From Verrucomicrobiales bacterium (lineage in GTDB: Bacteria > Verrucomicrobiota > Verrucomicrobiia > Verrucomicrobiales > SLCJ01), in the NCBI GenBank assembly GCA_046075565.1, contig JBJTQJ010000124.1, positions 10,953-74,952 of the forward strand: DNA of 64,000 bases, in the 5' to 3' direction. A model generated the notes under the pieces. It saw only the letters and a list, made by a program, of their open reading frames with translations, ran no database searches and was not told the DNA's origin. Position 1 is the stretch's first letter. Each line of letters starts with the position of its first letter. Positions 23,822 through 58,658 of the stretch are shown here, piece after piece. A program made the position numbers and the translations under genes.

Positions 23822-24360
23822 ACCACAGATTTCACAGATGGGCACGGATAAGATTCTGCATGAGTTGGTTTTGCTTTGGAGGATTCGTCTAGCTGGAGAC
23901 GCGTTTTATTCCGAGCTTGGCATGCTTGAAGTTGAGCAAGAGGGCCGTTTTCAATCGCGTGATATTGAGGCAACCGAGCATCTGGGCCAAATGGTTTTCG
24001 TTGAAGTCGCTGACCACTTTGGTGTCGACGATGATTCGGTTTGCGACAATGAGGTCTGGCACGAGTGTGCCTATAAGTTCATTCTGGTAGTGGACGGGGA
24101 ATTGTTTTTGTGAATCGCATTGGCATCCTTGTTTTGTAAGTTCTATTACCAGAGCCCGTTCATAAAGCTTTTCATCCAACCCGGGCTTGAGTGTGTTTCG
24201 CACGGTATAGGACGCGCCAATGATGGTTTCGGTGAGTTGTGTGTCGCTCTGCATATTGGGATGAATGATGGAGGGGGATTTTCACTATACTTCCCAAGGC
24301 GATCTTATGGCGTGCACGTGTTCTCCCCGATATCTGTGTGCATCTGTGTAATCTGTGGTT
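23822..24360 (-). mobile_element. GxxExxY cassette A bounded by ~30-bp inverted repeats (CACAGAT units)
   Basis: ACCACAGAT-TTCACAGAT-GGGCACGGATA (23822-23850) versus the reverse complement of 24331-24360, AACCACAGAT-TACACAGAT-GCACACAGATA; mobility is inferred. Confidence 0.7.
23889..24254 (-). CDS. GxxExxY family protein (PD-(D/E)XK nuclease-like fold)
   Basis: GLDEKLY (GxxExxY), VPDLIVANRIIVDTK, LLLNFK. Confidence 0.88.
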   Translation of the reverse strand: MQSDTQLTETIIGASYTVRNTLKPGLDEKLYERALVIELTKQGCQCDSQKQFPVHYQNELIGTLVPDLIVANRIIVDTKVVSDFNENHLAQMLGCLNITRLKTALLLNFKHAKLGIKRVSS

Positions 24361-24376
24361 AAATTCATGATTCGGA

Positions 24377-27208
24377 TTATTTCACCAGTGCGTCGTCGAG
24401 GTTCAGCAGAACCTTGGCGATAGTCGTGTAGGCGGAGGGCTGGCTGCCGAGTTTTTCATAGAGCCCGAGCAGTTCCTTGAGGCGTGCCTCACTCGGTGGC
24501 CTCGAGGTCGTCATACGATGTCCTGCAGCAATTTTCGCGGCGGGTTCGCCGGGGATCTCTTCAGCCATGCGCCGGGCAAGCGCCCGGGCGAACTCGGCAT
24601 GGGCGGGCGAGTTGAGTGTATCGAGAGCTTGCAGTGGCGTGTTGGAAAGGATGCGCCGGGCGGTGCAGAGTTCGCGGGTGGGCGCATCGAAGGTGGCAAA
24701 GGCCGGATACGGGTTGGTGTGTTTGATATAGGTGTAGAGCGAGCGCCGGTAGCGGTCGGCATGACCGGGCGGGGGAGTTTCCCATTTCTCCTGACTCTCG
24801 AAGGGCGTCCATCCGCCTTCGGGCATCGGTGGGAAAACAGGTGGACCGTAGAGCTTTGGAGCGAGCAGGCCCGAAGCGACAAGCCCATGGTCGCGCACCG
24901 CTTCGGCGCTCAGGCGGACGCGCGGGCCACGGGCCAGCAAGCGGTTGTGGGGATCGACGTCATGGTCGGGGCGCATGGCGGCAGATTGACGGTAAGTGGC
25001 GCTGGAAACAATTTCCCGCAGCATCGCCTTCTGGCTCCAATCGTAGTGGTCGCGGAAGCGCAGGGCCAGATAGTCCAGTAATTCCGGATGACTTGGATCA
25101 TCGCCGGAGGAGCCGAAGTCTTCGAGGGTCTCCACCAATCCGCGACCAAACAATTGCTCCCACATTCGGTTGACGGCGACACGGGCGGTCATGGGATTCT
25201 CGGTGGAAACAAGCCACCGGGCAAAAGCAAGGCGGTCGGCGGGAGCATGTGTGGGCAGTGCGCCAAAAAGCGACGGAATGCCGGGCGACTGCAAAGCTTG
25301 ATCCTTGTCGAGCCAGTTGCCGCGGCGGAAGAGGTGCGTGGGGCGTTGGAGATTCTCCGCCACGGCATCCATGATCGGAACATCGGCAGCTTTGTTTTTC
25401 GCGAGCGCGCCATCGATTTCCGAGATGCGGGCCAGCGAAGCCGCTTCCCCGGGATCATTGGCCAAAGTGGTCCAGCGTGGGTCGTCGGTAAGGTAAACGC
25501 GTCCGCGTTTTGCCACCATCGGGATGCTCAGCGCGGCATTCTGCTTCTGGGAGAGCGTAAGACGCAAGTTCGTGGCTTGAACCGGTTGCGTGAAGATCAA
25601 GATGCAGGAGCGCGGACGGTCAATCTTCGGGAATGCTCCCCAGCCGGTCGCCGAATCGGCAAGGCTTTGCTGCGGGTCGAAGAACGGATCGGGCTCGTCT
25701 CCGATCACTCGCGTGATGGCGATCGGGTTTTCGGTGCCGTCAGCTCCAACGACATGCAGTTGAATCTTTGACAAAATGGCTCCCCATTCCGGCGTGTGGA
25801 TCGCAGTCGCGGGATCCACAGGCAAAACCTCCACTCGCAACGCGGTGATGTTGGTGACGGAGGCCGGTGGAGTGATCCGGAGATCAAAGACAGAACCGGT
25901 GGCCGCGGTGCCTTTCACCAGGAACTCTGGATTACCCTCGCCGGCTTTCACTTCGAGTGTGACTTGCTTTGACTCCGCCCGCATCGCGCCGGCGGGTTGC
26001 CATGCCGTGGCTTCACGGAGTGCTTGCTGGTTGGCATGGTTGGTCTCCAGCAACGACCCGCGCTCTTTCCACCAAGCGGTGAAGTTTTCCGCCATGGCCT
26101 GCTCTTTTGGCGCCGGAAGCAACGGATAGTGCTGGCTCAGATCGTAATCCCGGGTGTTGTTGAAGAAGGCGAAGGAATTGTAATACTCGTGATGCAGAAT
26201 GGGATCGTAGGGATGCGAATGGCATTGCACACAGGCCATGGTAACGCCTTGCCATGCCTCCCATGTTGTGGCGACACGGTCCATGACGGCGGCAACCCGG
26301 AATTCCTCGTCATCCGCCCCTCCCTCACCGTTGTTCTGGGACTGGCGATGGAAATTGGTGGCGAGCAGGTCATCGATGGTGGGGGAGGGAAGCAAGTCGC
26401 CGGCGATTTGTTTGATGGTGAATTCATCAAATGGCATATCTCCGTTGTAGGCCCGCACAACCCAATCTCGGAACGGCCACGCCGGGCGCGGCAGATCGTG
26501 ACCAAGGCCTTCGGTGTCCGCATAACGGGCGAGATCGAGCCAGTTGGAGGCCCACCGTTCGCCGTAGTGTGGCGGGGCCAGCAACCGGTCTATTTCGCGT
26601 TGCCATGCCGCTTCGGGATCGGATTTCCACGCGGACTCGAAGGCATCAACCTCACCGAGGGTTGGCGGCAGGCCGGTGAGGTCGATGGACAATCGACGCA
26701 GCAGTAGCGCGGGCTCGGCTTCGGGATTGGGAGGGAGTTTCTCCGCTTCCAAGCGGGCAAGCACGAAGTGGTCGATGGTATTCTTTGGCCAATCGCCCTG
26801 CCGAACGCCGGGCGGCGGCACAAGGACAGGCTTTACGAATGCCCAATGCTCGTTCCACTTTGCTCCTTCCTGAATCCATTGGCGGAGTTTCCGCACCTCC
26901 TCTTCAGGCAATGGCGGACCGTGCTCCGGTTGGGGCATGACCAGCTCGGGATCCCTCGAAGTGACACGCCGCATCAACTCGGAAGCGTCGGGATCGCCAG
27001 CTACAATGGTTCGTTTGCCGGAATCGCCGGTCGCGAGCGCCTTTTCCTGGAAAACAAACGAGATGCCCCCGGCTTCTTTCACGCCACCATGGCAGGCGGT
27101 GCAATGGCTGGTGAGAATGGGCCGGATATCTCGGTTGAAATCGATCCCATCCGCCATCGCGGGAAGCGCGGCAAGGCTGAGGAGGCCGGCGAGATACTTT
27201 TGGGGCAT
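24377..27208 (-). CDS. PSD1/planctomycete cytochrome c protein (DUF1549/DUF1553)
   Basis: IDFNRDIRPIL..CTACHG, HWAF, YGERWASNWLDLARYADT, CVQCHSHPYDP, HPELLDYLA, NTPLQAL. Confidence 0.9.
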   Translation of the reverse strand: MPQKYLAGLLSLAALPAMADGIDFNRDIRPILTSHCTACHGGVKEAGGISFVFQEKALATGDSGKRTIVAGDPDASELMRRVTSRDPELVMPQPEHGPPLPEEEVRKLRQWIQEGAKWNEHWAFVKPVLVPPPGVRQGDWPKNTIDHFVLARLEAEKLPPNPEAEPALLLRRLSIDLTGLPPTLGEVDAFESAWKSDPEAAWQREIDRLLAPPHYGERWASNWLDLARYADTEGLGHDLPRPAWPFRDWVVRAYNGDMPFDEFTIKQIAGDLLPSPTIDDLLATNFHRQSQNNGEGGADDEEFRVAAVMDRVATTWEAWQGVTMACVQCHSHPYDPILHHEYYNSFAFFNNTRDYDLSQHYPLLPAPKEQAMAENFTAWWKERGSLLETNHANQQALREATAWQPAGAMRAESKQVTLEVKAGEGNPEFLVKGTAATGSVFDLRITPPASVTNITALRVEVLPVDPATAIHTPEWGAILSKIQLHVVGADGTENPIAITRVIGDEPDPFFDPQQSLADSATGWGAFPKIDRPRSCILIFTQPVQATNLRLTLSQKQNAALSIPMVAKRGRVYLTDDPRWTTLANDPGEAASLARISEIDGALAKNKAADVPIMDAVAENLQRPTHLFRRGNWLDKDQALQSPGIPSLFGALPTHAPADRLAFARWLVSTENPMTARVAVNRMWEQLFGRGLVETLEDFGSSGDDPSHPELLDYLALRFRDHYDWSQKAMLREIVSSATYRQSAAMRPDHDVDPHNRLLARGPRVRLSAEAVRDHGLVASGLLAPKLYGPPVFPPMPEGGWTPFESQEKWETPPPGHADRYRRSLYTYIKHTNPYPAFATFDAPTRELCTARRILSNTPLQALDTLNSPAHAEFARALARRMAEEIPGEPAAKIAAGHRMTTSRPPSEARLKELLGLYEKLGSQPSAYTTIAKVLLNLDDALVK

Positions 27209-27336
27209 TTTGTCTTTATGGTATCCGGACACAACGTTGTCGCGAAGCACCAATACGCCCCCGTCCCCCGATTTTTGCAGAAATTGGGCAGATCTGGGGA
27301 AAAGTAGTCCCCCGGCCACGCGTATCCGGCTTCACC

Positions 27337-29745: not shown

Positions 29746-29835
29746 CTTGGGAACGTGTGGCTCCTGATTCCTGGCACATTCGCCTCCGGCGATCAAAACT
29801 CGCTGCCCTTCGCCAAATCACGCTACATTCCTTGC

Positions 29836-30903
29836 ATGAAACTCGGATTTGGCCTCTACCGCCACCAACTCAACGCGGATCATTTCCAATTCGCCCGCCA
29901 GTGCGGCGCCACGCATTTGGTCATCCACATGGTGGACTACTTCCGGTCCTCGCACTCGAACCGGATTGGCGACCAGCCGGTGGGCGGCGACTCCGGATGG
30001 GGGCTCGCCGGGGATCCCGATGCCTTGTGGTCCTATGAGGAACTTTGTGCCATCAGGGATGATGCGGCATTCCATGATCTCCAAATCGAAGCCATCGAGA
30101 ACTTCGATCCCGCGCACTGGCACGACATCCTGCTCGACGGACCGAAAAAGTCCGAGCAATACGAAAAGCTGAAGACGATGATCCGTACCGTCGGGCGGGT
30201 CGGAATTCCCATAGTCGGCTACAACTTCTCGCTTGCTGGAGTAGCCGGGCGCGTGAAGGGTCCATGGGGCCGCGGAGGGGCGGAAGTCGTGGGCATGGAA
30301 GGTCCTTACGACAAACCGATTCCGAAGGGTATGGTCTGGAATATGATTTTCGACAATGATGCTCCGGCGGGCGATCTCGCGCCGGTGGCGGAGGAAGAGT
30401 TGTGGAGGCGGCACGGAGAGTTCCTCGACACGTTGATTCCGGTGGCCGAGGAAGCCGGTGTGATGCTCGCTGCCCACCCGGACGACCCACCCATGCCATC
30501 GGTGCGTGGGCAACCCCGCTTGGTGAACCAGCCCGGACTCTATCAGAAACTCATCAATCGGCACGCCAGCAAACACAACGCGCTCGAGTTTTGTCTGGGC
30601 ACGCTCGCGGAGATGACCGATGGCGACATCTATGAGGCGGTGGAAAGCTACAGCCGCCAGAACCGCATCGCCTATGTGCATTTTCGGAATGTGCGGGGCA
30701 AAGCTCCTTGGTATAAGGAAACCTTCGTCGATGAGGGCGATATCGACATGCCGCGTGTCCTGCGCATTTTGCAAGAAAACGGTTTTAATGGGGTCCTCAT
30801 ACCCGATCACGCCCCGCAGATGACGTGCGATGCACCGTGGCACGCAGGTATGGCCTATGCCTGCGGTTGGATGATGGCCGCGCTGCAAGGAATCAGGGCG
30901 TGA
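29836..30903 (+). CDS. uxuA: Mannonate dehydratase family protein
   Basis: AAHPDDPP, EFCLGT, YVHFRNVRG, ETFVDEGD, PDHAP. Confidence 0.82.
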   Translation: MKLGFGLYRHQLNADHFQFARQCGATHLVIHMVDYFRSSHSNRIGDQPVGGDSGWGLAGDPDALWSYEELCAIRDDAAFHDLQIEAIENFDPAHWHDILLDGPKKSEQYEKLKTMIRTVGRVGIPIVGYNFSLAGVAGRVKGPWGRGGAEVVGMEGPYDKPIPKGMVWNMIFDNDAPAGDLAPVAEEELWRRHGEFLDTLIPVAEEAGVMLAAHPDDPPMPSVRGQPRLVNQPGLYQKLINRHASKHNALEFCLGTLAEMTDGDIYEAVESYSRQNRIAYVHFRNVRGKAPWYKETFVDEGDIDMPRVLRILQENGFNGVLIPDHAPQMTCDAPWHAGMAYACGWMMAALQGIRA

Positions 30904-31003
30904 CCGCGGCTGTCACATCTTGTGCGACTGCATGATGTGCAGAGCGCGTTTTCTCCCCGAAGAATTGCAAGATGCGACGCGTTGGTCGCGTCATGCTGAT
31001 CGA

Positions 31004-35983: not shown

Positions 35984-35985
35984 AA

Positions 35986-38141: not shown

Positions 38142-38226
38142 GTTGAGGCCGGTGTTCTTGCGATACCGGGCGGAACCGGCACAGGGTGGAAACGCCCTGC
38201 CCCCCGGATTGGTTCACTCGAAAGAA

Positions 38227-39738
<1,512 letters not shown>

Positions 39739-45921: not shown

Positions 45922-46064
45922 GGCGGTTCGGGGAATTCATCGCGCCAAGACGGGCTTTCGGCAAGAGCGGGATCGTTTCACCTGTCCCGGTGCGGGTCAG
46001 GATTCCATTTGTAGGGTGGATTCCGGTGAAACAAGCCGGAGCCCCCAAACGTAGCAAGGCCGCC

Positions 46065-47798: not shown

Positions 47799-47805
47799 TC
47801 TTTAA

Positions 47806-47947
47806 AACCACGAATGGACACGAAGGAACACGAATAAGAAAACAAAAACCGCATGTTTACCAAAGAAACTTCGCTCGCTCGTTTTCGTAGTTTTCATTGT
47901 CTTCTAACCTTTTGAAAATTCGTGCCCATTCGTGCCCATTCGTGGTT
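47806..47947. mobile_element. Gene-less (MITE-like) cassette with the same inverted repeats as GxxExxY cassette B
   Basis: AACCACGAAT-GGACACGAAG-GAACACGAAT, an ~82-bp AT-rich spacer, then ATTCGTGCCC-ATTCGTGCCC-ATTCGTGGTT. Confidence 0.72.
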
Positions 47948-47985
47948 CCGTTCCCGTCCATCTCCTCTCACTTTCCCGCCATCCA

Positions 47986-50373
47986 ATGAAGCCAATCCCA
48001 TTCTCCCCATCCCGTCGCTCCATAAGCCGGAAATCTTCCCCACATCTTGTGCTGGGAACCGCCCTTGGTTGCTGGTTGTCCGTGGCCGCGCCAGGCATGG
48101 CCCAGGAAGCCGCCACTGAACGTCCGCGGGCAACGGCGGAGCTCGATCGCGAGGCCAAACAACTTTATGATCAGGCGATCGAGTTGATGGATTACAAACA
48201 ATATGATCGCGCCGTCGCCATGCTGGAAACCGTGGTGCGCGACAACCAGGGCAGCTTGATCGCCTACATGGCCCACATGGCCATGGGCAAACACCATCTG
48301 GATCAAAACAAGGAGAAAGAAGCCCTCGACCATTTTCTCCTGCTCACCCGCTTGCTTGCTCCTGTTCCCGGCGAACAACAATCACCGGAACTGCGCGAAC
48401 TCTTTAACGAGGCGCTTTTCCAAGCCGGATTCAGCCATTACAAGGCCGGTCAATACGCGGCCGCCTTCCCGCTCCTGCGCCGCTTGACCGAAGTGGCGGG
48501 GAAAACCAAGTGGGCGAACCAAGCCTACTTCTACATCGGGATGAGCCACTACAACCTCAAGAACTGGAATAAGGCCATCGATTCCTTGTCTCTGGTGGGC
48601 ACCGAAGTCGAGGACACCGAAGAAGCTGCCGACGATCTCGGGCGCATCGAGATTGGACAAAGGTTCTATTCGAAGATCGTGGACGCCGACGTCCCGATCA
48701 TGCGCAAGCTCAATGTGGCGGTCACGGCCAAGGTCACGGTTTCCAGCGGCGATGCGGAAACCATTACCGGCACTCCGGTGCCCGGCAAAGCCAATGAAAT
48801 GCTCGCTTCCGCTCCAACCGTGCTCGGCGAAGCGAAGCCGGGCGATGGAGTTATCCAGATGCTCGGCGGCGATACCCTGACCGTTGTTTACGTGGACGAC
48901 AGCACCCAGGACGGACAGAAAGGCATCGAGCGTGTCGGCAAGGTCCGCGCGGTCAGCACCGGCACCGTCGGCTTTTTCCTTGGCGACAACTCCACTCCCG
49001 CCTATCTGGCGTATCCCGGCCAGCCGCAGGTCGTGATGCTGCGCGATGCCGATCTCGACAAATCACCCGCCGCCGAGCAAACCACGCTCACCATCATTTC
49101 CCGTTACAAGGTAGAATCGGAGGAGCCGGCCGAGAATGCCGACGCCCTCGATATCTTCGCCCTCGACGATGCCAACAAGGTGTCGTGGAAAGAACGGGAC
49201 CGCGTGACCATCAAACTGGTGGAAACCGGCGAAGGCCCGCAGATCCGCTCCGGCGCGTTCCTCGGGAAAATCGACCTTGCCCCCGTCGTCCCGGGAGCCG
49301 AACCCGATACCGCCGATGCCTTGCTCACTTGTGACGAACTCGACGAGTTGCTCGTCACCTACACCGATGATGTCCACCTCTATGGCGATGAATCCCGCAC
49401 CAGCGAAGCCAAGATCAAGGTCGCTGGCTCGGTGAACTCGGGCGTGACCGCCGATCAATACGTGGTCTTCGAGGAACAACTCAAGGCGCGCAAGGGTTCG
49501 GTGGAAGCCGAGGCACTCGTCGGCCTGGGAGCCATTTACAAGGACATGGGTCTCGACCAACGGGCCTCCATGCGCGCCAAGGAGGCCCTCGACAAAATCG
49601 ATCCCATCATTCTCAACCGGAGCAAACTCCCCGGCGAATTGGTGGAAAATGCCTTCCGCCTCAAGTGGGAAAGCGAGCTGCTCAAGAACGACTTTGCCGC
49701 CGCCACCGCCACCTGCCTTGCTTTCAACCGCCTTTATCCGGAATCCGTGCTCGCCGACCAGGCCTTGATGACGCTCGGGCGCAGTTTGGCTGATAAAGGA
49801 GATTTCGCCCAGGCCGTTGGTGTTTATGGCCGGGTGCTGCAACTTCAGAACCCGATCTCGGCCGCCGAAGCCCAGTTCCGCATCGGCGAAACCTTGCAGA
49901 AGGAAGCCGAGGAAAAGGCCAAGGCCGCCGATGCCCACAACAGCAAATGGGGAACCGCCGGACTGGGCAAAACCACGCTGCAGAATATGATGAGCCCGGC
50001 CATCGCCGCCTACCGCAAAACCTTCCAGACCTATCCGGAAAGTTCCTATGCCGCGGAGGCCCTCGGGCGGGTGGTCCGATATTTTGTCGAGAGCGAGGAC
50101 TACGCCCAGGCGGTCGAGCTACTGGAGAGTGTCTTCAATGATTTCCCCGACGCGGCTTTCCTCGATGAGATGCTGTTGCTCTGGGCCAATGTCGGCTTCC
50201 GCATGGGCGACATGGAACTGGCCAAAGGCAAACTCCGCCAGCTTCTCTTCGAGTATCCCGCAAGCAACCATGTGGAGGAAGCGCGCAAGCGGCTCGCCTG
50301 CATGGAAGCAGGCAGTGCCGATGCCCCGACCGGGGAGGCTGGAGCCGCCGCCGGTGCGGGAGCCAAGGAATAA
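47986..50373 (+). CDS. Secreted TPR protein with central beta-sandwich-like modules
   Basis: Signal peptide; N- and C-terminal TPRs (YPESVLADQAL, YPESSYAAEAL); central DADLD...ETG..RSGAFLG module. Confidence 0.8.
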   Translation: MKPIPFSPSRRSISRKSSPHLVLGTALGCWLSVAAPGMAQEAATERPRATAELDREAKQLYDQAIELMDYKQYDRAVAMLETVVRDNQGSLIAYMAHMAMGKHHLDQNKEKEALDHFLLLTRLLAPVPGEQQSPELRELFNEALFQAGFSHYKAGQYAAAFPLLRRLTEVAGKTKWANQAYFYIGMSHYNLKNWNKAIDSLSLVGTEVEDTEEAADDLGRIEIGQRFYSKIVDADVPIMRKLNVAVTAKVTVSSGDAETITGTPVPGKANEMLASAPTVLGEAKPGDGVIQMLGGDTLTVVYVDDSTQDGQKGIERVGKVRAVSTGTVGFFLGDNSTPAYLAYPGQPQVVMLRDADLDKSPAAEQTTLTIISRYKVESEEPAENADALDIFALDDANKVSWKERDRVTIKLVETGEGPQIRSGAFLGKIDLAPVVPGAEPDTADALLTCDELDELLVTYTDDVHLYGDESRTSEAKIKVAGSVNSGVTADQYVVFEEQLKARKGSVEAEALVGLGAIYKDMGLDQRASMRAKEALDKIDPIILNRSKLPGELVENAFRLKWESELLKNDFAAATATCLAFNRLYPESVLADQALMTLGRSLADKGDFAQAVGVYGRVLQLQNPISAAEAQFRIGETLQKEAEEKAKAADAHNSKWGTAGLGKTTLQNMMSPAIAAYRKTFQTYPESSYAAEALGRVVRYFVESEDYAQAVELLESVFNDFPDAAFLDEMLLLWANVGFRMGDMELAKGKLRQLLFEYPASNHVEEARKRLACMEAGSADAPTGEAGAAAGAGAKE

Positions 50374-50405
50374 GGAAGCGAGCGAACCCTTCACCCGCAC
50401 ATCCG

Positions 50406-53400
50406 ATGGGACGACTTCCTTCATCCGACAATCAACCCCCGAGCCCACCTGCCGCCGCAAGGAGACGGCGGAGGACGGGAATTTTCCCCCTGCTCCCCGG
50501 TCTAGCTATCGGGTGTATGGTATTTGTTAGCCCATCTCCGGCCGGGCCGTTTGAGGAACGCCGTGCATCGGTGGCGCGAGCCGTGGAGATCCAATCGGAG
50601 GCCGACATGGCTGCCTTGCTCCAGGCCGGGCTTGACGAGAACCTGCCCGCGCCCGCCATCATGCTGGTCCGCCAGTGGATGCGCCAGAATCTTCCCAAGG
50701 ATGCCCGGATGCTCGGTCTGGCCGCCCGCGCGGCCCAATTGAGCGGCGATGCCAAGGAGGCATCCGCGCTTTACCAGCAATTCCTCAAATTAGCCGATCC
50801 AAAATCCGCCGAAGCAAGTGACGCCATCACCGCGCTGCATGGACTTCTGCTCAACCAACTCGCCGATCCCGGCACGGCTTACGCCTTCGCGCGCGCCGAA
50901 GCGGAACGTCTGGCCGTCAATCCGCGCTTCCGCCAATATGATCGCTGGTTCCTCGATCTGGCCAAGGAGCGCCAGGACGCCGAAGGTGTGGCCATCCGTT
51001 TGTTAGCCATCATCAAGGCGGGTGCCCCGCAGGCCGAACTGGTAACTTTTTATGACGGCGACTTCCGCTGGTTGCTCGAGACCGTTGATGGTTATGTCGA
51101 TCGTCCGGGTTCCATTCCGCTGACCCAGGATCTTTTCGATGCCATCACCGAACTTGCCGCCGTCATCAAACACGATGAGGAAATGAAACTCCGGCTCGAT
51201 TGGGCGGCGTCCGTCAAAGCCTACAATCTTTCTTTGCTTGGCGACGATACCAAGCGGGTCGGGAAAAGAAAACGCAAGCAGGGACCCGCGGCGGAAACGG
51301 AGAAGCTCGAACCGACCGCTGCTCCCATCGCCGAGGCAACCGCGCTTTTGACGAAGTATCCCGGCCATGCCAAGTGGGTGCAGGATGGATGGGCCGGCGG
51401 TGGCAATGGCCCATACTACCGGGGCGACCCCAAGAAATATTGGACACCCGATATCGATGCGAAGATGGCCCCCATCCTCGCCGCTTTTCCGAAGCTGAGC
51501 CCACTTCAACAAGCCGATCTTTTGCAATCATGGAAACCATCAGCCTACTCCGGTTTCCCTGATGTCGGCTCGGTCAAGGCCGTGCGCGATTTCCTCGCCG
51601 CCAACCCCGCATTGATGAATAGCCGCGATGGTTTGCTCATCCTGGACAAGGAGTGGAACAAATTAACGCCGGAAGAGGCGCAGCAAATGGCGCCGTCTTT
51701 GGAAAAGGCAACGGATCCAAGGGCTTCGTTGATTCGGTCCATCGCGGCAGGGGGCAAGGACTTGGACAAGGTGATGGCCGCCTTGTTAGGACCGGAGGTC
51801 TGGCGCCTGGGGCCCAACGAATTGAACGGCCCATATGCCGATCTCCTTTGGCATTACTGCGGTCGTCCGGGCGAGGCGGCCAAGCGGGACGCGGAGATTG
51901 CCAAGGCCAAGGCGCTGGCCGCCACCTTCGCCGCCGGCGATGTGAAAAAGGAAGACCCGGCCGACAAACGTCTGGCCGCCCTTCGCATGCTCTGGGTTGA
52001 TTTTAAATCGTCCCAACCGAAAATCCCGGCTGTTTTCACCCGCCTGGTTGCCGTTTTGAAGGTCACGCCGGAAGCGGTGCCGGAATTGCTCAAGGATGCG
52101 AGCCCGGAAGCGCAGATCCTCGTCCGTGACGCCCTTGCAGCTGGATTGCAGGACACTACGGGCATACTGGAACGCGATGACCGTGCAAGGGGCATTTCCT
52201 CCTCGGTTTACAGCCCTTGGTTTTCGCGTCTGATCGCACTCCATGGTGGCCTTGAACGTTTGAAGCAAAGCAGGAAGGAATGGATTGCGCCCCATCCGAT
52301 GGAACCGGCGCTCCGTGCCGCGTTGGCAGCGCAACTGCCACAAGGCAAAGTCGAGCCATGGTTGGTCATGGCTTGGATTAACACGCAGTTTCCCGAAAAC
52401 AATGCCGAGTCGGTGAAGTTGATGCAGACGCTCTTCCAATCTCCGGTCTGGAAGACCCTGCCCACCGAAGCCCGCTTTGCCGCCCGCTCATGGTTCAAAG
52501 AAAACGCCATGACTCCAGCTGAATGGGCGCTCGTGCAGAGCTGTGATCCTGCCAAGCTTTCCCAAGCCTTGCTCGCTCTCCCCAAGGAAGCGGATACCGC
52601 GACCACCGTGGCCGCATTGAAATCCACCATCGAAGCGTTGACGTCCGCGCCGATGCGGGTGGAAATCCAGGGCCTTGAGCAACTCGCCGCCGTGAGCGAC
52701 GAGGTCTTCACCGCTCGGGAAGTCCAAGCGCTCATTCTGGAACTGGTCGATTCGCTCCATTCCTTCGAACCGACCAGAGCTTTCGGTGACCGGCTACTGG
52801 CCCACGCCCTCAAACAAGCCGACACCGCCGCCTTGCTGCGTTTGGCTCCCTATCTCTGGCGGCAAGTTGAAAGAGTGGCCAACCACCTCCCGACGATGCT
52901 CGCCCGCATCGACTCGCTCGCCGATGACCAACCGTCCGCCGCCAATGCCCTCGCCAGCACCGGCTTGGGCACCATCGATCGTTATCGCACCGGCCACTTG
53001 TGGTTCAAACGCGAGAGCGATGTCCCTCGCTTGCGCGCCGCCCGCAGCAAGACCGCCGTCAAACTCGGCCTCGTGGTCATTCCCGTCACCCCCGATGATC
53101 CAACCTTTCCGGTCTATCAATCCCAAGCCGACTGGCTGAACGACAACGAGGACAGCGCGTGGAATCTGCTGGACGCCAATTGGGAGCACTTCCTCAAGAT
53201 CCATCGCGAGTTGTCCTTTGGATACCAAATGTGGACACTGCGCCGGACCATCATCGCCCGCGACGACCTCCGCCAGGAAGCTTTGATCAAATCCCTGCGC
53301 GGATGGAGCAGCGAGCCCGGTTGCCCGCTGACGGCGGTGGAAAAAGCCATGATCGAAATGGCCTACGGCGACATCGCCGTGCAACGCGGACAACTTCCCG

Positions 53401-56400
53401 AAGCGAAGGAAATTTTCTCCCGCATCCAGACCAATGAAGCCAATCTCGGCCTCCCCGTCCGTCATCAGGCTGCGTTGCGGGTCGTAGCCGTGCTGCGTCT
53501 GGCCAAGGATTATGATGGCGCATTGAAAGCCGTCACCGAACTGGAGATGGAACGGGTTCCGGAGATCTGGTCGGATGTCCGTTATGCCCGCGCCGAAGTC
53601 CATTTCGCCAATGAAGATTTCGAAAGCACGAAGGCGGATGTCGAATCGATCCTCGCCCGCGATTCCAACCACGCGGACTCCCGTATCCTGCTCGGCAAAG
53701 TGCAGCTCAAGTTGCAAAAGTTGATGGATGCCACCGAACTCGAATTCGGTTCGACCAGCAGCCAGGATGCATTGGTGCCCGGCGAAAAACTCAAGGTCAC
53801 GCTGAATGACCCGACCCTCGCCGTCTCCGGCGCGGGCACGGCCATCGAAGTGGTGGTCTGGGCGGTCTCCGGTGACAAAGAGACGTTTTTCCTCCGCCAG
53901 TTCGGCGATCAGAAAACCAAGTTCCGCGGGGAAGTGGCCACCGCGCTGGGTGCTCCCGTGCCCGGCGATGGAACCCTCCAGGTCATCGGGGACGACGAGG
54001 TGTTCTACGCCTATGCCGAAAGTTTCCGCGAGCGGATGAACCAGCAGGATGAAAAACGGGGCGGACCGATCACCATCGCTTCCGATTCCATGCTCATGGC
54101 CTCCGCCCGCAAATTGCTCACCGAGGCCGAACAACGCACCGCTGATTTGAACGCGCTCATGGAGACCGTGAAAGACGTGCGAAGCGATCAGCAAGCCGAA
54201 AAAGAGGCGCGCAAGAAGATGGCCGCGCGCGCGCTCGATGCCGATGCCCGCGCCGAAAGATCCGGGGAAATGGACGAGGAGGAATTCGGACGATTCCTGG
54301 TCAGCGTGGTCAAACCCGGCAACCCGATCAACGTGCGGGTCATCGATCCGGATCGCAGCCGGACCGCCGGAGTTGATGAGCTCGCGGTCGGCATCGCCAG
54401 TTCAAGTGGCGACAGCATTTCCCGGATTGTGCTCAAGGAAACCGGCACCCACACCGGATGGTTCGAGGGCAGTGTCCCGACCGCCGGCGCCCAGGCCATG
54501 GCCTTCGCCCGCGCCTCCGAACCCGGGCGCAACCCGAACATGGTCATTAGTCCGGTCGAATCCTATCCGGCATGGAAGGCTGCTCCCGACCGTTCCGGCA
54601 TTTTCGACTTCACCGTTGATCTCAACGACAATCATCCTATCGGCCAGCTCGACATCCTCGCCGCCGAACCGGGAACGAAACTCAAGAAGTTCATGATCCA
54701 AACCGGCATGAACCCGCAGGACATGACAACCGTGGCGGCCTATCCGCGGCATTTCGGGGGTATTCCGAATGCATGGCGACCGTCGGTCACGATCATGAAC
54801 GACGCCGATCGTTATCACAACAACAATGATCGATCGGTCTATGATTTGGGGGAACTCGGAGCGCAGATCGATCGCGGCTGGATGACCCAGCAATTCGCGG
54901 CGGGTATCGCGGAAAACGTGGCCGGCCCGTCGGCGGCGATGGATCCCGCCATTCCGGCCAAAGTGAAGTGGTTGCGCAACAATCAGCACCACAATGCGCA
55001 TGTAGTTTATCGTTTCAGGGGTTATTTCCATGAAGCGGCGGATGTCATGCGCCGGTTCAAACTGGAACTCGGGCCCTACAAAGTCCCCGCCGGCACCCAT
55101 CCGAGCGTGTCGAATCCCCCGCAGTTCCTGCTGGCGGTGAATGGAAAGCCTATCACCAGCAAGGAAAAGCCGGATGAACTTGAGGGCGAGATCGAGCTTC
55201 GCCGCGGCTTGCAGCGGTTTGAAATCTGGGCGACCGGCTGGGATTGCACGATTGGCTTCGGTCGTTCCATCAAGTTGCTGGCCAATCTTTCCCCCGCCGG
55301 CGAAATGGTCGATTGCCCGGATAACTTCTTCGACCCGACCACCTTCCCGGCCGGGCTGCTCGAACACCGCAACGCCCCCGCCACTCTCACACCCGGCGAC
55401 GATGGAACACGCTTCACGGTCAAATTCGCTCCCGATTCGCGCGCCCGTTTGATCCGTCTGGTTTTCCTCGAACAGGAAGGCCCGGTGCCCGCGCTCAATA
55501 AAATCACCATGACCACCCCCGACGGGAAAAAGCTGCTTCCGGTCAAAGAAGACTTCGCCGCCCTCAACAAGAACGAAACTTTGGAAATCCTCGGTGGCGA
55601 CAAGATTGCCGTGCGTTATATCGACGATCGTTTTGTAACAAAAACCAAGGCCAATCAGGAGCGTTTCCTCACGGTTTCCTTCGCCGACGCGAAGGTCGAG
55701 TTCGCCGACATGACCCCGCGGTTTGACAGCCGAAAGGGCGAGGTCGCGCCGTATTACGAGCGACTGCTGCGTTTCCGCCATAACGAGCCGCTGGCCCTTG
55801 CCGTCTTCGACGCTGACATGGATGTGACCGTGCAACCGGACAAACTCAAGGTGAGCCTGACCAGCCAGGCCGGAGGCACCCGCGAATTCGAGGCGATGGA
55901 AACCGGAGATTCTACCGGGATCTTCAAGCTTGTTATCACCCCGGTGCCCGGCACTCCCGCCGGAGAAGGGCAATTCCAGGTTGCGGAAGGCGGCACCATC
56001 AGTGTCATCTACCGGGATATCGACAACAACCGGCCCGGTGTCCCGACCGACCGGCTGGCCTCCATCGAACACGCGGCTTTCACCAAGCCGGTGATCCGGG
56101 TGGCCCATGCCGAAGTGAGTCCGCTGCCCGCCGAAGAAGCCGGTGGTCCGGTTCATTTGCACGACGGATTCTGGCGGAACACTGAGGAACAATCCCAGCG
56201 CGAACTGGCCAGCATGGGGCTCATCCAACCCCGGTGGAAAATCGACCACAGACTTCTCTCCCCGGAAGAAGCTCCGGAAGGTGGTGTCGCCGTGGTCCAC
56301 GGGCGTGAGATGTATCTCGAGGTGGTCGCTCCCCAGTTGGCCTTGGGTGTCCTTTCCGAAATCAAGGTGTATGCCCAGACTGATTCGGGCCGCAAAGCCG

Positions 56401-58226
56401 GTGGTGGAGGTGCTGCTGGTTTTGATATCACGGTTCCCGGCACCATGGAGCTGACGGGCATCTTGCCAGGACCATTGTCTTTCAAAGGTGCCAGGTCGAA
56501 TATCATGGAAATCCCCAGTTACGCCGCCGGCCCAATCCATCCGTCCGGAAACCAACTCACCACCGATCGTTTCCTGGTTTCCGTCCCGCTCATCGCCGCC
56601 ATGCTTCCCGACCACGGGGTTGTCCCCGATGAAGAAAAAGCGGAATTGCGGAAACGGCTGATGGGCATGTATGGCGAGTCGGCAGCCTACGGGATGCAGC
56701 GTGGTCTCGTTGTCCGCCCCGGGGATCGTGTCCATCTCGGATTCCGTTACCAGGATGCCGCCGGGGCCGAACAATGGGCCGCCACCACCGCCAAAGTGAT
56801 TACCCATCCCGTGCTCGACGTGATGGCAGATGATTACCGCACCAAACTGACCAGCGCCTTCGTCGGCGAAACACTTTATCTGCGTGTCGTCGATCTCGGT
56901 GCCGACACCACCGACAACGTGGACGCCCTCTCCGTGACCATCCAAGCCAAATCCGGAGCCAAAGGCCGGGTGGAGCTCCGCGAAAGCGGCCCGCACACCG
57001 GCATCTTCAGGGGCGGGGTCGAGCTCGCTTATGTGAAGGCGATCGAGGCTGCAAAGTCCGACAAGTCCGACGGGTCAGACAAGTCTGACAAGTCCGACCC
57101 TGAAGAAGAGATCCCCCCGACCATTTCCCAAGGCCAAACCCTCGCTGTGATCTACGACGACACCGTGGCCGTGCGCTACACCGATGCCAATGGGCTCAAG
57201 ACCGACACCCATCTTGTGACGATCAGCAAGGGGGCCGATGGCAGCATCGAACCATTCTCCAAGATCTATCAGGATCAGGAGGTGGCCATGCGCACCCAGT
57301 TCTCGATGGCCGAAGCCTATCTCGAATTGGCCAAACGCCACCGCCTGCTCGGGGAGCACGAGGCCGCCGCCTTGGAATACACCACGGCCAAACAACTGCT
57401 GTCCTCGGCCATGGAGCAGTTCACCGATCCCGAGACCCGAGCCCAGGCCGAATATCTGCTCGGCAACCTGACCGCCGAGGAAGCCGACACCACGACGGAA
57501 CCCGCCCTCAAGGAAACCCGTTACCGCGCCGCCCTCTCGCGCTTCTTGAATGTGACCGGAAGTTATCCCAACACCCTGCACGCGTCCAAGGCCCAGTATC
57601 GCATTGCGGTAATTTACGAAGCGCTCAAGGAACCGGAAATCGCCGCCCAAGAATACGTGAAGCTGGCCTACAAGTATCCGGAATCGGAATTTGTCGCCAC
57701 TTCCATGGCCCGGCTCGGAAGCCATTTCCTTAAGTTGGCCAGCGCCTACGAAGAAAAAGCCAAACCCCTGCTGGCCAAAGGCGAAGCTGAAGGAAACCAG
57801 GATGCCCTCTTCGAAGGCCAAGCCATGCAAAAGATGGCCGAAGCCGAATACCTCAAGACCGCCAGCATTTTCGGGCGTCTTCAGGAAAGGTTCCCCGGCA
57901 ATCAACTGGCTGGCCAAGCCGGATTGCGCGCCGGACAGGCCTTCATGCGCGCCCGCCGCGATCAGGATGCCCTCGATGCCTTCCTGAAGGTCGTGGACGA
58001 GGAAAACTACGATGGCGTGAAGATCCGCGCCCAGGCCATGTATTGGGCGGGCATGTGTTACCAGAAACTGCGCCAACAGATGGCCGCCTACGCCATCTTC
58101 AAACGCCTGACCTACGACTTCCCCGAAAGTGAATGGGCCGCCTTCGCCCGCGCCCAGTTGTCGCAGGAGAGCATGATCAACTTGGAAACGAATCTGGAAC
58201 TCGAACGGTTGGAGGGTAAAAAATGA
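50406..58226 (+). CDS. Giant (~2600 aa) secreted TPR / multi-beta-sandwich protein; start uncertain (50406 or 50517)
   Basis: Long uninterrupted ORF; TPR clusters; repeated V.D.D...ETG..TG.F modules; PA14-like and discoidin-like segments. Confidence 0.85.
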   Translation: MGRLPSSDNQPPSPPAAARRRRRTGIFPLLPGLAIGCMVFVSPSPAGPFEERRASVARAVEIQSEADMAALLQAGLDENLPAPAIMLVRQWMRQNLPKDARMLGLAARAAQLSGDAKEASALYQQFLKLADPKSAEASDAITALHGLLLNQLADPGTAYAFARAEAERLAVNPRFRQYDRWFLDLAKERQDAEGVAIRLLAIIKAGAPQAELVTFYDGDFRWLLETVDGYVDRPGSIPLTQDLFDAITELAAVIKHDEEMKLRLDWAASVKAYNLSLLGDDTKRVGKRKRKQGPAAETEKLEPTAAPIAEATALLTKYPGHAKWVQDGWAGGGNGPYYRGDPKKYWTPDIDAKMAPILAAFPKLSPLQQADLLQSWKPSAYSGFPDVGSVKAVRDFLAANPALMNSRDGLLILDKEWNKLTPEEAQQMAPSLEKATDPRASLIRSIAAGGKDLDKVMAALLGPEVWRLGPNELNGPYADLLWHYCGRPGEAAKRDAEIAKAKALAATFAAGDVKKEDPADKRLAALRMLWVDFKSSQPKIPAVFTRLVAVLKVTPEAVPELLKDASPEAQILVRDALAAGLQDTTGILERDDRARGISSSVYSPWFSRLIALHGGLERLKQSRKEWIAPHPMEPALRAALAAQLPQGKVEPWLVMAWINTQFPENNAESVKLMQTLFQSPVWKTLPTEARFAARSWFKENAMTPAEWALVQSCDPAKLSQALLALPKEADTATTVAALKSTIEALTSAPMRVEIQGLEQLAAVSDEVFTAREVQALILELVDSLHSFEPTRAFGDRLLAHALKQADTAALLRLAPYLWRQVERVANHLPTMLARIDSLADDQPSAANALASTGLGTIDRYRTGHLWFKRESDVPRLRAARSKTAVKLGLVVIPVTPDDPTFPVYQSQADWLNDNEDSAWNLLDANWEHFLKIHRELSFGYQMWTLRRTIIARDDLRQEALIKSLRGWSSEPGCPLTAVEKAMIEMAYGDIAVQRGQLPEAKEIFSRIQTNEANLGLPVRHQAALRVVAVLRLAKDYDGALKAVTELEMERVPEIWSDVRYARAEVHFANEDFESTKADVESILARDSNHADSRILLGKVQLKLQKLMDATELEFGSTSSQDALVPGEKLKVTLNDPTLAVSGAGTAIEVVVWAVSGDKETFFLRQFGDQKTKFRGEVATALGAPVPGDGTLQVIGDDEVFYAYAESFRERMNQQDEKRGGPITIASDSMLMASARKLLTEAEQRTADLNALMETVKDVRSDQQAEKEARKKMAARALDADARAERSGEMDEEEFGRFLVSVVKPGNPINVRVIDPDRSRTAGVDELAVGIASSSGDSISRIVLKETGTHTGWFEGSVPTAGAQAMAFARASEPGRNPNMVISPVESYPAWKAAPDRSGIFDFTVDLNDNHPIGQLDILAAEPGTKLKKFMIQTGMNPQDMTTVAAYPRHFGGIPNAWRPSVTIMNDADRYHNNNDRSVYDLGELGAQIDRGWMTQQFAAGIAENVAGPSAAMDPAIPAKVKWLRNNQHHNAHVVYRFRGYFHEAADVMRRFKLELGPYKVPAGTHPSVSNPPQFLLAVNGKPITSKEKPDELEGEIELRRGLQRFEIWATGWDCTIGFGRSIKLLANLSPAGEMVDCPDNFFDPTTFPAGLLEHRNAPATLTPGDDGTRFTVKFAPDSRARLIRLVFLEQEGPVPALNKITMTTPDGKKLLPVKEDFAALNKNETLEILGGDKIAVRYIDDRFVTKTKANQERFLTVSFADAKVEFADMTPRFDSRKGEVAPYYERLLRFRHNEPLALAVFDADMDVTVQPDKLKVSLTSQAGGTREFEAMETGDSTGIFKLVITPVPGTPAGEGQFQVAEGGTISVIYRDIDNNRPGVPTDRLASIEHAAFTKPVIRVAHAEVSPLPAEEAGGPVHLHDGFWRNTEEQSQRELASMGLIQPRWKIDHRLLSPEEAPEGGVAVVHGREMYLEVVAPQLALGVLSEIKVYAQTDSGRKAGGGGAAGFDITVPGTMELTGILPGPLSFKGARSNIMEIPSYAAGPIHPSGNQLTTDRFLVSVPLIAAMLPDHGVVPDEEKAELRKRLMGMYGESAAYGMQRGLVVRPGDRVHLGFRYQDAAGAEQWAATTAKVITHPVLDVMADDYRTKLTSAFVGETLYLRVVDLGADTTDNVDALSVTIQAKSGAKGRVELRESGPHTGIFRGGVELAYVKAIEAAKSDKSDGSDKSDKSDPEEEIPPTISQGQTLAVIYDDTVAVRYTDANGLKTDTHLVTISKGADGSIEPFSKIYQDQEVAMRTQFSMAEAYLELAKRHRLLGEHEAAALEYTTAKQLLSSAMEQFTDPETRAQAEYLLGNLTAEEADTTTEPALKETRYRAALSRFLNVTGSYPNTLHASKAQYRIAVIYEALKEPEIAAQEYVKLAYKYPESEFVATSMARLGSHFLKLASAYEEKAKPLLAKGEAEGNQDALFEGQAMQKMAEAEYLKTASIFGRLQERFPGNQLAGQAGLRAGQAFMRARRDQDALDAFLKVVDEENYDGVKIRAQAMYWAGMCYQKLRQQMAAYAIFKRLTYDFPESEWAAFARAQLSQESMINLETNLELERLEGKK
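57054..57098 (+). repeat. In-frame 5 x 9-bp tandem repeat (AAGTCCGAC) encoding KSDKSDGSDKSDKSD
   Basis: AAGTCCGAC AAGTCCGAC GGGTCAGAC AAGTCTGAC AAGTCCGAC. Confidence 0.85.
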
Positions 58227-58624
58227 AACTCGAACCACGAATGGACACGAATTCACACGAATTGCTCTTAAAGGATGAAGTGTTTGCCGTCGTCGGCTGC
58301 GCTTTGGATGTTTTGCGTGAACTCGGTCATGGTTTGCATGAGAAACCTTATGAAAACTCGATGGTTGTTGAGTTCGGCAGGCGAGGGATCCCTTTTCAGC
58401 AGCAGCCCCGGTTTCCTATCAACTACAAGGGTGTCCACGTGGGCGAGTATGTTCCGGATCTGATCACGCACGGCCAAATCGTCATCGACACCAAAGTCAT
58501 TGATCGGATCACGAGTCATGAATTAGGGCAGGTCATGAACTATCTGAGGATCACAGGCCTCCGGGTCGCGGTAATCCTGAATTTTAAAAACGCAAAACTG
58601 GAATGGAAAAGGGTCGTTCTATGA
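58223..58624 (+). CDS. GxxExxY family protein (PD-(D/E)XK nuclease-like fold)
   Basis: GLHEKPY, VPDLITHGQIVIDTK, QVMNYL, ILNFK; ATGA overlaps at both ends. Confidence 0.9.
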   Translation: MKLEPRMDTNSHELLLKDEVFAVVGCALDVLRELGHGLHEKPYENSMVVEFGRRGIPFQQQPRFPINYKGVHVGEYVPDLITHGQIVIDTKVIDRITSHELGQVMNYLRITGLRVAVILNFKNAKLEWKRVVL

Positions 58625-58658
58625 AAAAATTCGTGTTCATTGGTGTCCATTCGTGGTT
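58233..58658 (+). mobile_element. GxxExxY cassette B bounded by 30-bp inverted repeats (CACGAAT units)
   Basis: AACCACGAAT-GGACACGAAT-TCACACGAAT (58233-58262) and ATTCGTGTTC-ATTGGTGTCC-ATTCGTGGTT (58629-58658); mobility is inferred. Confidence 0.72.

What the first reader, a model, noticed from the sequence alone, without database searches (positions are those of the whole stretch)
23822..58658. Candidate undescribed element family: GxxExxY nuclease-like genes bracketed by periodic inverted repeats, with a gene-less derivative
Seen: three cassettes (23822-24360, 47806-47947, 58233-58658) have ~30-bp imperfect inverted ends. Each end starts (A)ACCAC and is made of three 9-10-bp units with a CAC(A/G)(G/A)AT core. 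Two enclose a GxxExxY gene and the third encloses only ~82 bp of AT-rich DNA. All lie between co-oriented operon genes, each enclosed gene is co-oriented with its host operon, and I see no target-site duplications. Established: GxxExxY proteins are an uncharacterised family with a PD-(D/E)XK nuclease-like motif. Inference: this is an autonomous/non-autonomous selfish element system, analogous to RAYT/REPIN or rRNA intervening sequences but using a PD-(D/E)XK protein. The ends could pair as a long stem in mRNA or ssDNA, looping out the gene without breaking the operon.
Basis: partly seen in the sequence, partly recalled or inferred. Interest (0 to 1): 0.9.

Follow-up and report, generated by a model that had tools for sequence, protein, structure and literature searches.

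The report
Nuclease gene boxed in hairpin repeats
Small nuclease genes of unknown function sit between inverted arrays of a repeated 7-base word, and gene-less copies of the same hairpins have spread through this genome as tiny jumping elements, which points to a nuclease-and-repeat system that I could not find described in print.

Summary
All three cassettes have 30-33-nt inverted arms (85-90% complementary), each made of three spaced copies of one 7-nt word. Two enclose intact GxxExxY (PF13366, PD-(D/E)XK) genes.

- **Gene-less copy:** the one at 47806-47947 is one of 24 full-length copies of a ~175-bp family in this 3.9-Mb genome.
- **Target-site duplications:** 9 of 19 complete copies carry perfect 5-bp direct repeats just outside an outer inverted repeat (0 of 20000 permutations). 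A sister family in another genome shows 6 of 13.
- **Site occupancy:** sites 1 and 2 are empty in relatives. Site 3 is shared with another genus, where the gene is internally deleted.
- **Spread in the order:** 51 of 85 GxxExxY genes carry such arms, with word types that follow protein clades.
- **Concerted change:** at one orthologous site all six words differ by the same two bases while the spacers are kept.
- **No RNA signature:** arm mismatches show no G:U bias on the sense strand.

Best reading (about 0.5): a DNA-level nuclease-plus-cognate-repeat system built like Ssn/SRM and RAYT/REPIN, but with a different nuclease fold. Who moves the copies is open.

The scan has noted this theme before on other DNA (553 notes, at least 472 genomes). 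My literature searches found no description.

The parts
23818..23850 (.). Cassette 1, arm on the 3' side of the enclosed (minus-strand) gene; three 7-nt words (AG/GG core)
   Evidence: 33 nt, 85% complementary to 24331-24363
23889..24254 (-). GxxExxY / PF13366 nuclease gene of cassette 1 (121 aa)
   Evidence: groups with the gene at G000:C82:84190 in the tree
24331..24363 (.). Cassette 1, arm on the 5' side of the gene
47803..47950 (-). Cassette 2: gene-less type I element (arms 47806-47835 and 47918-47947). Its vestigial gene direction is the minus strand, opposite to the host operon. Its outer end on the right has decayed and it has no TSD
   Evidence: nhmmer 121 bits over model positions 2-149; TSD 2 of 5; no ATG left
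58233..58263 (.). Cassette 3, 5' arm. It is read through in frame by the ORF that starts at 58223
58223..58624 (+). GxxExxY / PF13366 nuclease gene of cassette 3. The family core starts at the GTG at 58280. The ATG at 58223 overlaps the stop of the 2606-aa upstream gene
58628..58658 (.). Cassette 3, 3' arm. It also codes the hydrophobic N-terminus of the downstream 1799+ aa ORF (start 58603 or 58621)
   Evidence: same arrangement in relative G003

Best explanation
The cassettes belong to a nuclease-plus-cognate-repeat system that acts at the DNA level.

The unit is a 115-aa PD-(D/E)XK nuclease gene (GxxExxY) with inverted arms. Each arm carries three copies of one 7-nt word about 10 bp apart. 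The word is specific to the lineage and is kept the same at all six positions. That is what a single sequence-specific reader would impose, and the nuclease is the only protein the unit encodes. So I infer that the nuclease binds the words, on duplex DNA or on an extruded or single-stranded hairpin, and cuts nearby.

Gene-less copies arise by internal deletion. They multiply as ~175-bp MITE-like elements that insert with a 5-bp staggered cut into AT-rich pentamers, often the stop codon of a host gene.

Shown here: the association, the word-to-clade correspondence, concerted word change, the TSDs, empty sites, origin of gene-less forms by deletion, and intact catalytic residues.

Inferred: that the nuclease reads the words. 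Also inferred, at about 0.3 on its own: that the nuclease, rather than an unlinked enzyme, makes the cuts that move the copies. Strand joining would need host repair or an unknown partner.
For: 1. **Linkage.** 3 of 5 GxxExxY genes in G000 lie within about 100 bp of arms. This holds for 0 of 11 Y1_Tnp hits and 0 of 7 DDE/rve hits within 1 kb. Across 31 genomes of the order, 51 of 85 genes have significant flanking inverted repeats. 45 of 85 have one 6-mer four or more times in the two arms.
2. **Words follow protein clades.** The tree needs 46 label changes against a shuffled mean of 56.2 (0 of 200 shuffles as low). One clade of 17 has no arms, occurs once per genome, and is grouped largely by host family.
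3. **Concerted change.** At an orthologous site in two genera, all six words differ by the same two central bases (GA against AG), while the spacers and arm tips are conserved.
4. **Only matching words are abundant.** An unbiased scan of G000 for triple-periodic 6-mers gives at least 94 of 148 loci with the word types of the resident cassettes. No other word occurs more than twice.
5. **Co-occurrence.** Genomes rich in arms usually hold a gene of the cognate clade: 5 of 6 genomes for one word type and 2 of 2 for another (read).
6. **Arm conservation.** Arms are 90-100% identical over 28-37 nt between families whose flanking genes give no DNA match. The interior and outer ends of the elements differ.
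7. **Mobility.** 5-bp TSDs in 9 of 19 copies (0 of 20000 permutations) and in 6 of 13 copies of the G034 family (1 of 20000). Sites 1 and 2 are empty in relatives.
8. **Active-looking enzyme.** E21, D60 and K72 are invariant or at least 90% conserved in 47 sequences. The model has pLDDT 97.7. Best fold matches are PD-(D/E)XK nucleases: Cas4 Z 8.4, 3ijm Z 8.1, Hjc Z 6.9.
9. **Not an RNA signature.** Sense G:U 48, A:C 70 and other 131 among 249 mismatched arm positions.
Against: - No biochemistry exists for any family member.
- A PD-(D/E)XK nuclease cannot join strands by itself (established knowledge of the superfamily).
- The TSD-bearing gene-less elements have outer terminal repeats that the gene-bearing cassettes lack. 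A separate transposase could therefore be acting on those outer ends.
- I found no TSD around gene-bearing cassettes. The generic scan I used also failed on the positive control, so this tells nothing either way.
- Word match between gene and gene-less copies is not strict. G008 holds 11 matches to GA-core arms but its only GxxExxY gene has AG-core arms. G022 has 14 arms of another type and no cognate gene among its 3 hits.
- Linked DNA is inherited together, so the clade-to-word correspondence alone does not prove recognition.
Confidence: 0.5

Rival explanations
1. Ordinary MITEs with a passenger. The gene-less elements are moved in trans by an unlinked DDE-type transposase that recognises the outer terminal repeats. 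The periodic arms are only a hairpin module carried inside different MITE shells. GxxExxY genes are cargo or neighbours and do not recognise the arms.
For: 5-bp TSDs and outer terminal inverted repeats that differ between genomes while the arms stay the same. In G034 the targets look like a defined pentamer, CTNAG-like, as many DDE transposases prefer. G000 does hold 3 DDE_Tnp_1 and 4 rve genes. Earlier scan notes describe hairpin cores inside IS-derived MITEs.
Against: None of the 7 DDE/rve loci in G000 has ends like the element's outer ends or lies near arms; the assembly is a draft, so this is weak. The rival does not explain several results: why 51 of 85 GxxExxY genes are bracketed by arms, why words track protein clades, why all six words changed together at one site, or why arms are far better conserved than the shells.
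Confidence: 0.2
2. An RNA-level device like the intervening sequences of 23S rRNA. The arms pair in the operon transcript and are cut, for example by RNase III. This releases or insulates the enclosed mRNA without harming the host operon.
For: The two gene-bearing cassettes are co-oriented with their operons and overlap host stops and starts. A crude strand call on 48 related cassettes gives 61 of 88 called neighbours on the same strand. Long stems are possible.
Against: No sense-strand G:U excess, 48 against 70 A:C. Identity of the three words within an arm is not needed for pairing. Spacers between words are often unpaired. Neither 23S rRNA copy has an insert: 2823 nt match the whole model. 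18 of 23 gene-less copies with a called gene on that side have it converging on them, against their vestigial gene direction.
Confidence: 0.08
3. Host-useful REP-like hairpins. The arm pairs are kept because they end or stabilise transcripts at the 3' ends of genes. The GxxExxY gene is a domesticated repeat-binding nuclease that polices recombination or incoming DNA at these sites, as SsnA does, and plays no part in spreading them.
For: Gene-less copies sit at gene 3' ends: 20 of 21 copies with both neighbours called are not between divergent genes. In 8 of 24 the host stop codon lies in the duplicated pentamer. In the direction of the upstream host gene the hairpin is followed by a T-rich tract. 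SsnA is a published precedent for a repeat-specific nuclease that modulates transformation (PMC11893778: abstract and sections 7 and 12 read).
Against: TSDs and empty sites show that copies insert as mobile DNA. Several distinct gene lineages coexist in each genome, 5-7 in some, which is unlike a single domesticated gene. The one clade that does look domesticated (one per genome, grouped largely by host family) has no arms.
Confidence: 0.15

Closest known systems
Ssn nucleases with SRM/NTS hairpin repeats (NTS-ssnA-NTS; Chenal et al. 2025, PMC11893778; abstract and sections 7 and 12 read)
   Same: A small single-domain nuclease gene flanked on both sides by its own hairpin-forming repeat. There are many gene-less copies in the genome, the gene and repeat co-occur across genomes, and many lineage-specific nuclease/repeat pairs exist. 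The authors note that the layout looks like an insertion sequence.
   Different: Ssn is GIY-YIG; this is PD-(D/E)XK. An SRM is one 20-50-nt hairpin with an oriented upstream sequence, not arms of three spaced copies of a 7-nt word. Ssn activity (site-specific ssDNA cutting) is shown; nothing is shown here. The gene-less copies here carry 5-bp TSDs.
REPIN/RAYT systems (Bertels & Rainey 2011, PMC3116915 and PMC3337134; abstracts read)
   Same: The gene is flanked by inverted hairpin repeats. Gene-less doublets that form hairpins are the abundant replicating unit. Each repeat family pairs with its own gene. In some relatives the GxxExxY gene lies between two complete hairpins, as a RAYT lies between REPINs.
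   Different: RAYT is a Y1 HUH transposase (PF01797). The 11 Y1_Tnp hits in this genome are at least 2991 bp from any arm. The periodic triple-word arms differ from REPs. There are several gene lineages per genome. REPINs are not reported to make TSDs (recalled).
Bacterial MITEs such as Neisseria Correia elements (recalled, not looked up)
   Same: 100-200-bp non-coding elements with terminal inverted repeats and short TSDs. They sit between genes and are often co-transcribed, with no transposase inside.
   Different: A MITE normally matches the ends of a resident insertion sequence, and none was found here. The internal arms here are shared with a nuclease gene family and are kept across bacterial families, while the MITE shell changes.
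23S rRNA intervening sequences that carry an ORF (Leptospira, Coxiella; recalled)
   Same: A small ORF enclosed by inverted repeats and inserted in a transcribed host unit without destroying it.
   Different: Not in rRNA. The ORF family is different. There is no RNA-pairing signature. TSDs point to DNA insertion.
Tn7 (TnsA/TnsB) and Mu ends (recalled)
   Same: 5-bp TSD, element ends that hold several spaced copies of a protein-binding word, and in Tn7 a PD-(D/E)XK nuclease (TnsA) that takes part in cutting.
   Different: Those systems need a DDE strand-transferase encoded in the element. These cassettes encode one 115-aa protein only.

Membership tests
GxxExxY / PF13366 (PD-(D/E)XK superfamily) | Score above the curated cut-off of TIGR04256 and PF13366 | tested here: met
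   121.5 and 119.9 bits (cut-off 35); 114.3 and 112.1 bits (cut-off 22)
GxxExxY / PF13366 (PD-(D/E)XK superfamily) | Acidic and lysine catalytic residues (E in helix 1, D, (D/E)xK) and the nuclease fold | tested here: met
   E21 invariant; D60 and K72 at least 90% conserved in 47 sequences. Model pLDDT 97.7. PD-(D/E)XK nucleases top both fold searches. Activity itself is untested
REPIN/RAYT | The associated gene is a Y1 HUH transposase (PF01797) | tested here: not met
   The enclosed genes are PF13366 only. Y1_Tnp hits lie at least 2991 bp from arms
REPIN/RAYT | Gene flanked by inverted copies of the repeat that is abundant genome-wide as hairpin doublets | tested here: met
Ssn/SRM | Single-domain GIY-YIG nuclease | tested here: not met
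   Pfam gives PF13366 only; the fold is PD-(D/E)XK
Ssn/SRM | Gene flanked on both sides by its cognate hairpin repeat, and gene and repeat co-occur in genomes | tested here: met
   51 of 85 genes flanked; co-occurrence in 5 of 6 and 2 of 2 arm-rich genomes
Ssn/SRM | Site-specific cleavage of single-stranded DNA at the repeat | not testable with these tools
   Needs purified protein and oligonucleotides
MITE | Short non-coding element with terminal inverted repeats and target-site duplications, in many copies | tested here: met
   24 full-length copies; outer inverted repeat and 5-bp TSD in 9 of 19; 6 of 13 in G034
MITE | A resident autonomous insertion sequence with the same ends | tested here: inconclusive
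   None of 7 DDE/rve loci has similar ends. The genome is a 129-contig draft and other transposase families were not searched
23S rRNA intervening sequence | Inserted in a 23S rRNA helix | tested here: not met
   Both 23S copies match the whole model in 2823 nt with no insert. All three cassettes lie between protein genes
23S rRNA intervening sequence | Stem excised from the transcript by RNase III | not testable with these tools
   No RNA run holds the locus. Indirectly, there is no G:U signature

The most novel reading that the evidence does not exclude
GxxExxY proteins are a large natural library of 115-aa sequence-specific nucleases. Each reads its own 7-nt word, which is written three times in each arm beside the gene, so the specificity of any family member could be read off the genome. 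They drive a previously unrecognised class of bacterial mobile DNA, in which a PD-(D/E)XK enzyme rather than a DDE, HUH or serine/tyrosine enzyme makes the 5-bp staggered cuts.
Probability: 0.3. Interest if true: 0.9.

Novelty: new variant of a known kind. Interest (0 to 1): 0.75.

Why it matters
PF13366/GxxExxY is a widespread family listed as 'function unknown' (PMC3424549, passage read). My full-text searches for its names found only passing mentions.

If the protein reads the words next to its gene, three things follow:
- Hundreds of small nucleases with predictable and diverse specificities become testable at once, as happened for Ssn.
- A large share of unexplained intergenic hairpin repeats in PVC-type and other bacteria gets an explanation.
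- A third, independent nuclease fold joins HUH and GIY-YIG in the 'gene boxed in its own repeats' layout, which would suggest convergent evolution of this lifestyle.

Locally, the elements matter for annotation. They insert at stop codons, add spurious N-terminal extensions to ORFs, and one arm has become the signal-peptide coding sequence of a giant host gene.

Tried and rejected
- **RNA evidence.** No RNA holder is listed for window:49100-59000. Contigs of four DNA runs laid on 44000-60000 gave one 18-kb contig that carries both cassettes. The joints at the arms come from other copies of the repeat. No contig bridges an empty site, so nothing can be concluded.
- **Homodimer prediction for the nuclease.** No verdict.
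- **Sequence search of solved structures.** No hit with the single protein. With the profile only non-significant hits at E of 0.3 or more, among them T7 endonuclease I.
- **Rfam.** Nothing at gathering score in the window. One sub-threshold plant microRNA-precursor match on the hairpin (25.5 bits against 211), which I take as chance.
- **Generic TSD scan around 48 gene-bearing cassettes.** 0 hits, but the same scan found only 1 of 19 in the positive control, so it is uninformative.
- **Applying the type I TSD rule to type II copies and to cassettes 1 and 3.** No signal. Several type II copies are part of a larger 400-600-bp composite repeat.
- **Longest-common-substring TSD test.** Too noisy.
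- **Large arm-bounded segments.** G000:C76:7326-8680 and C21:51871-53840 hold ordinary host genes between separate elements, not a transposase.
- **Empty-site search for site 3.** Only 1 of 40 relatives has the downstream gene at all.
- **Literature.** 'GxxExxY' (3 papers, none on function), 'PDDEXK_3' (1), 'PF13366/TIGR04256' (2), and MITE/Verrucomicrobia/hairpin/TSD (nothing relevant among the 10 papers listed, of 94 that held the terms). One search was malformed.
- **Invalid control.** The reversed-genome control is invalid, because reversal keeps periodic repeats. I use only the distribution of words from that call.


Full report
**What is in the window**

The three cassettes are as described. 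Inverted arms lie at 23818-23850/24331-24363 (33 nt, 85% complementary), 47806-47835/47918-47947 (30 nt, 87%) and 58233-58263/58628-58658 (31 nt, 90%). Each arm begins (A)ACCAC and holds three copies of a 7-nt word with a period of about 10. The word has a GA core in cassettes 2 and 3 and an AG or GG core in cassette 1.

The ORFs at 23889-24254(-) and 58223-58624(+) are clear GxxExxY/PF13366 members. Both are co-oriented with their neighbours. Cassette 1 sits between a DUF1501 gene and a PSCyt/DUF1553 gene. Cassettes 2 and 3 sit inside a run of giant TPR genes.

**More than chance**

The window lies in a 3.9-Mb, 129-contig genome. Genome-wide there are 66 three-word chains and one four-word chain of this word, against 1 in a reversed-genome control. 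An unbiased scan for any 6-mer repeated three times at 8-11-nt spacing found 148 loci. At least 94 of them carry the GA-, GG- or AG-core words, and no other word occurs more than twice.

**The gene-less cassette is one copy of a family**

A profile built from 12 copies finds 43 regions, 24 of them full length, with a conserved interior. Conservation runs beyond the arms, about 8 nt outside one arm and about 19 nt outside the other. These outer pieces form a further short inverted repeat.

Immediately outside that repeat, 9 of 19 complete copies have perfect 5-bp direct repeats and 3 more match at 4 of 5. Mismatched left/right pairs are perfect in 9 of 342 cases, and 0 of 20000 permutations reach 9. 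An inverted-repeat control gives 1. The duplicated pentamers are AT-rich. In 8 of 24 copies the stop codon of the adjoining host gene lies within 9 nt of the profile match, at the place of the duplicated pentamer (distances; the overlap is my reading). So the family does make target-site duplications.

The window's own copy (cassette 2) has lost its right outer end and shows no duplication (2 of 5).

The result replicates. Genome G034, from another family of the order, has 13 copies of an element with the same arms but a different interior and different, longer outer ends. Of these, 6 of 13 have perfect 5-bp duplications of CTNAG-like pentamers. Mismatched pairs give 11 of 156, and 1 of 20000 permutations reaches 6.

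**Gene-less forms come from gene-bearing ones**

In 13 of 19 complete copies an RBS-like stretch and an ATG lie 6-8 nt before one arm (6 nt in 11 of them). In 12 of the 13 they read into it in the same frame, and with a closely similar opening peptide, as the N-terminal extension of the cassette-3 ORF. The ORFs stop after 1-51 codons.

Relative G003 (same family, other genus) has the cassette at the orthologous site 3. There the gene has an in-frame internal deletion. About 18 N-terminal and 21 C-terminal codons remain, and the motif and catalytic residues are gone. I read this; searches give the context.

**Presence and absence**

- Site 3 is shared by G000 and G003, so it is old. No other of 40 relatives has the downstream gene.
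- Site 2 is empty in G003, where the intergenic region is 72 bp with no arms.
- At site 1, the closest DUF1501/DUF1553 gene pairs in G002 and G003 have 80-bp and 13-bp spacers without a cassette. These gene families have paralogues, so orthology is likely but not certain.

**The association across the order**

TIGR04256 finds 98 matches in 31 of 41 genomes. I fetched the 80 best of the 93 matches outside G000 and added the 5 of G000. That left out 13 weaker or partial matches.

Of these 85 genes, 51 have a flanking inverted repeat well above shuffles. About 10 more are visibly periodic but fall below my threshold. In 45 of 85, one 6-mer occurs four or more times in the two arms. At least a dozen different words occur.

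In a tree of 83 proteins (two shorter than 100 aa were dropped), word labels cluster: 46 changes against a shuffled mean of 56.2, with 0 of 200 shuffles as low. One well-supported clade of 17 occurs once per genome, is grouped largely by host family, carries a changed motif, and has no arms at all. G000:C68:5511-5861 belongs to it. This clade serves as an internal control, because it shows that arms go with the multi-copy lineages.

In some relatives the gene lies between two complete hairpins rather than inside one.

**A reader of the words**

G034 and G008 carry the cassette at the same site, between the same two aldehyde-dehydrogenase-like genes. Their arms align base for base, including spacers and tips. 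Yet all six words have GA in one genome and AG in the other. Six separate identical two-base changes that leave the spacers untouched are not what drift or simple conversion gives. They fit selection by one sequence-specific reader, or replacement by a sister cassette at the same spot.

Arms are 90-100% identical over 28-37 nt between families whose neighbouring genes give no DNA match.

Arm types are abundant mostly where a gene of the cognate clade is present. For one word, 5 of the 6 genomes with four or more arms have the gene. For another, 2 of 2 do. For the GA-core word it is 3 of 6, plus the decayed G003 copy.

**DNA or RNA**

Among 2073 aligned arm positions of 51 cassettes there are 249 mismatches. 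Of these, 48 would be G:U on the sense strand, 70 would be G:U only on the antisense strand, and 131 are neither. So there is no sign of selection for a sense-strand RNA stem. Both 23S rRNA genes are uninterrupted. No RNA data exist for this organism in the runs I could reach.

**The protein**

E21, D60 and K72 (window numbering from 58280) are invariant or at least 90% conserved. The AlphaFold model is confident, with pLDDT 97.7. It is a minimal PD-(D/E)XK fold. The nearest structures are Cas4 SSO0001 (Z 8.4), the uncharacterised 3ijm (Z 8.1), the BpuSI nuclease domain (Z 7.9) and Hjc (Z 6.9), and none stands out.

**Who moves the copies?**

G000 has 3 DDE_Tnp_1, 4 rve and 11 Y1_Tnp hits. None is within 1 kb of an arm, and none of the DDE/rve loci has ends like the element's. 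The assembly is a draft, so this is weak evidence.

The gene-bearing cassettes lack the outer ends of the TSD-bearing copies. A separate enzyme acting on the shells therefore remains a live rival.

**Comparison with what is known**

The layout matches Ssn/SRM (PMC11893778) and REPIN/RAYT (PMC3116915, PMC3337134), but the enzyme fold differs from both, so this is not a member of either. The gene-less copies meet the descriptive definition of a MITE, except that no matching insertion sequence was found.

I rate it a new variant of a known kind. The scan's notebook shows that the same theme was noted many times on other genomes. I tested the claims here independently. I also took from those notes the lead to the Ssn paper and the idea of hairpin cores inside MITE shells.

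Noticed in passing
window 58603-58700; L002:2488-2620: The 3' arm of cassette 3 is translated as the hydrophobic N-terminal (signal-peptide-like) segment of the downstream 1799+ aa ORF. The arm-coded residues align with the orthologue in another genus (57% identity over 87 aa). Mobile-element DNA has been taken over as host coding sequence.
   Followed up: partly
window 19884-20228 and 1621-1866: Two Y1_Tnp (IS200/RAYT-type, PF01797) matches lie in this window, one with an in-frame TAG. They are among 11 such hits in the genome, several of which are partial matches inside 200-480-aa frames. None lies near the periodic arms.
   Followed up: partly
G000:C68:5511-5861 (outside the window): A divergent GxxExxY paralogue sits inside a 288-aa open frame, with the glutamate of the motif displaced. 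It belongs to a clade found once per genome, grouped largely by host family and without arms. It may be a domesticated or fused form.
   Followed up: partly
G000:C36:3118-3252, C19:25015-25139, C16:814-948: Hybrid hairpins pair one GA-core arm with one GG- or AG-core arm. This suggests recombination between repeat families, or tolerance of one-base word mismatches.
   Followed up: no
G000:C82:73290-73920, with copies on C68, C37 and C103: A 400-600-bp composite repeat contains a type II hairpin and recurs with its flanks, often at contig ends. It looks like a larger mosaic unit built from several modules.
   Followed up: partly
L114:178-560 (G034:C100): Two copies of the G034 element lie head to tail and share one pentamer between them. 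This looks like a second insertion into the duplicated target of the first.
   Followed up: no
G000 type I copies, e.g. window 47948-47970 side; The 19-nt outer piece (the reverse complement of an RBS plus ATG) also ends other repeat families in the genome that have different arms, for example on C38, C104, C129, C88 and C105. It may be a shared end module.
   Followed up: no
G000:C4:16172-18994 and 63515-66337: Two 23S rRNA genes with equal model scores lie in inverted orientation on one contig, about 44.5 kb apart.
   Followed up: no
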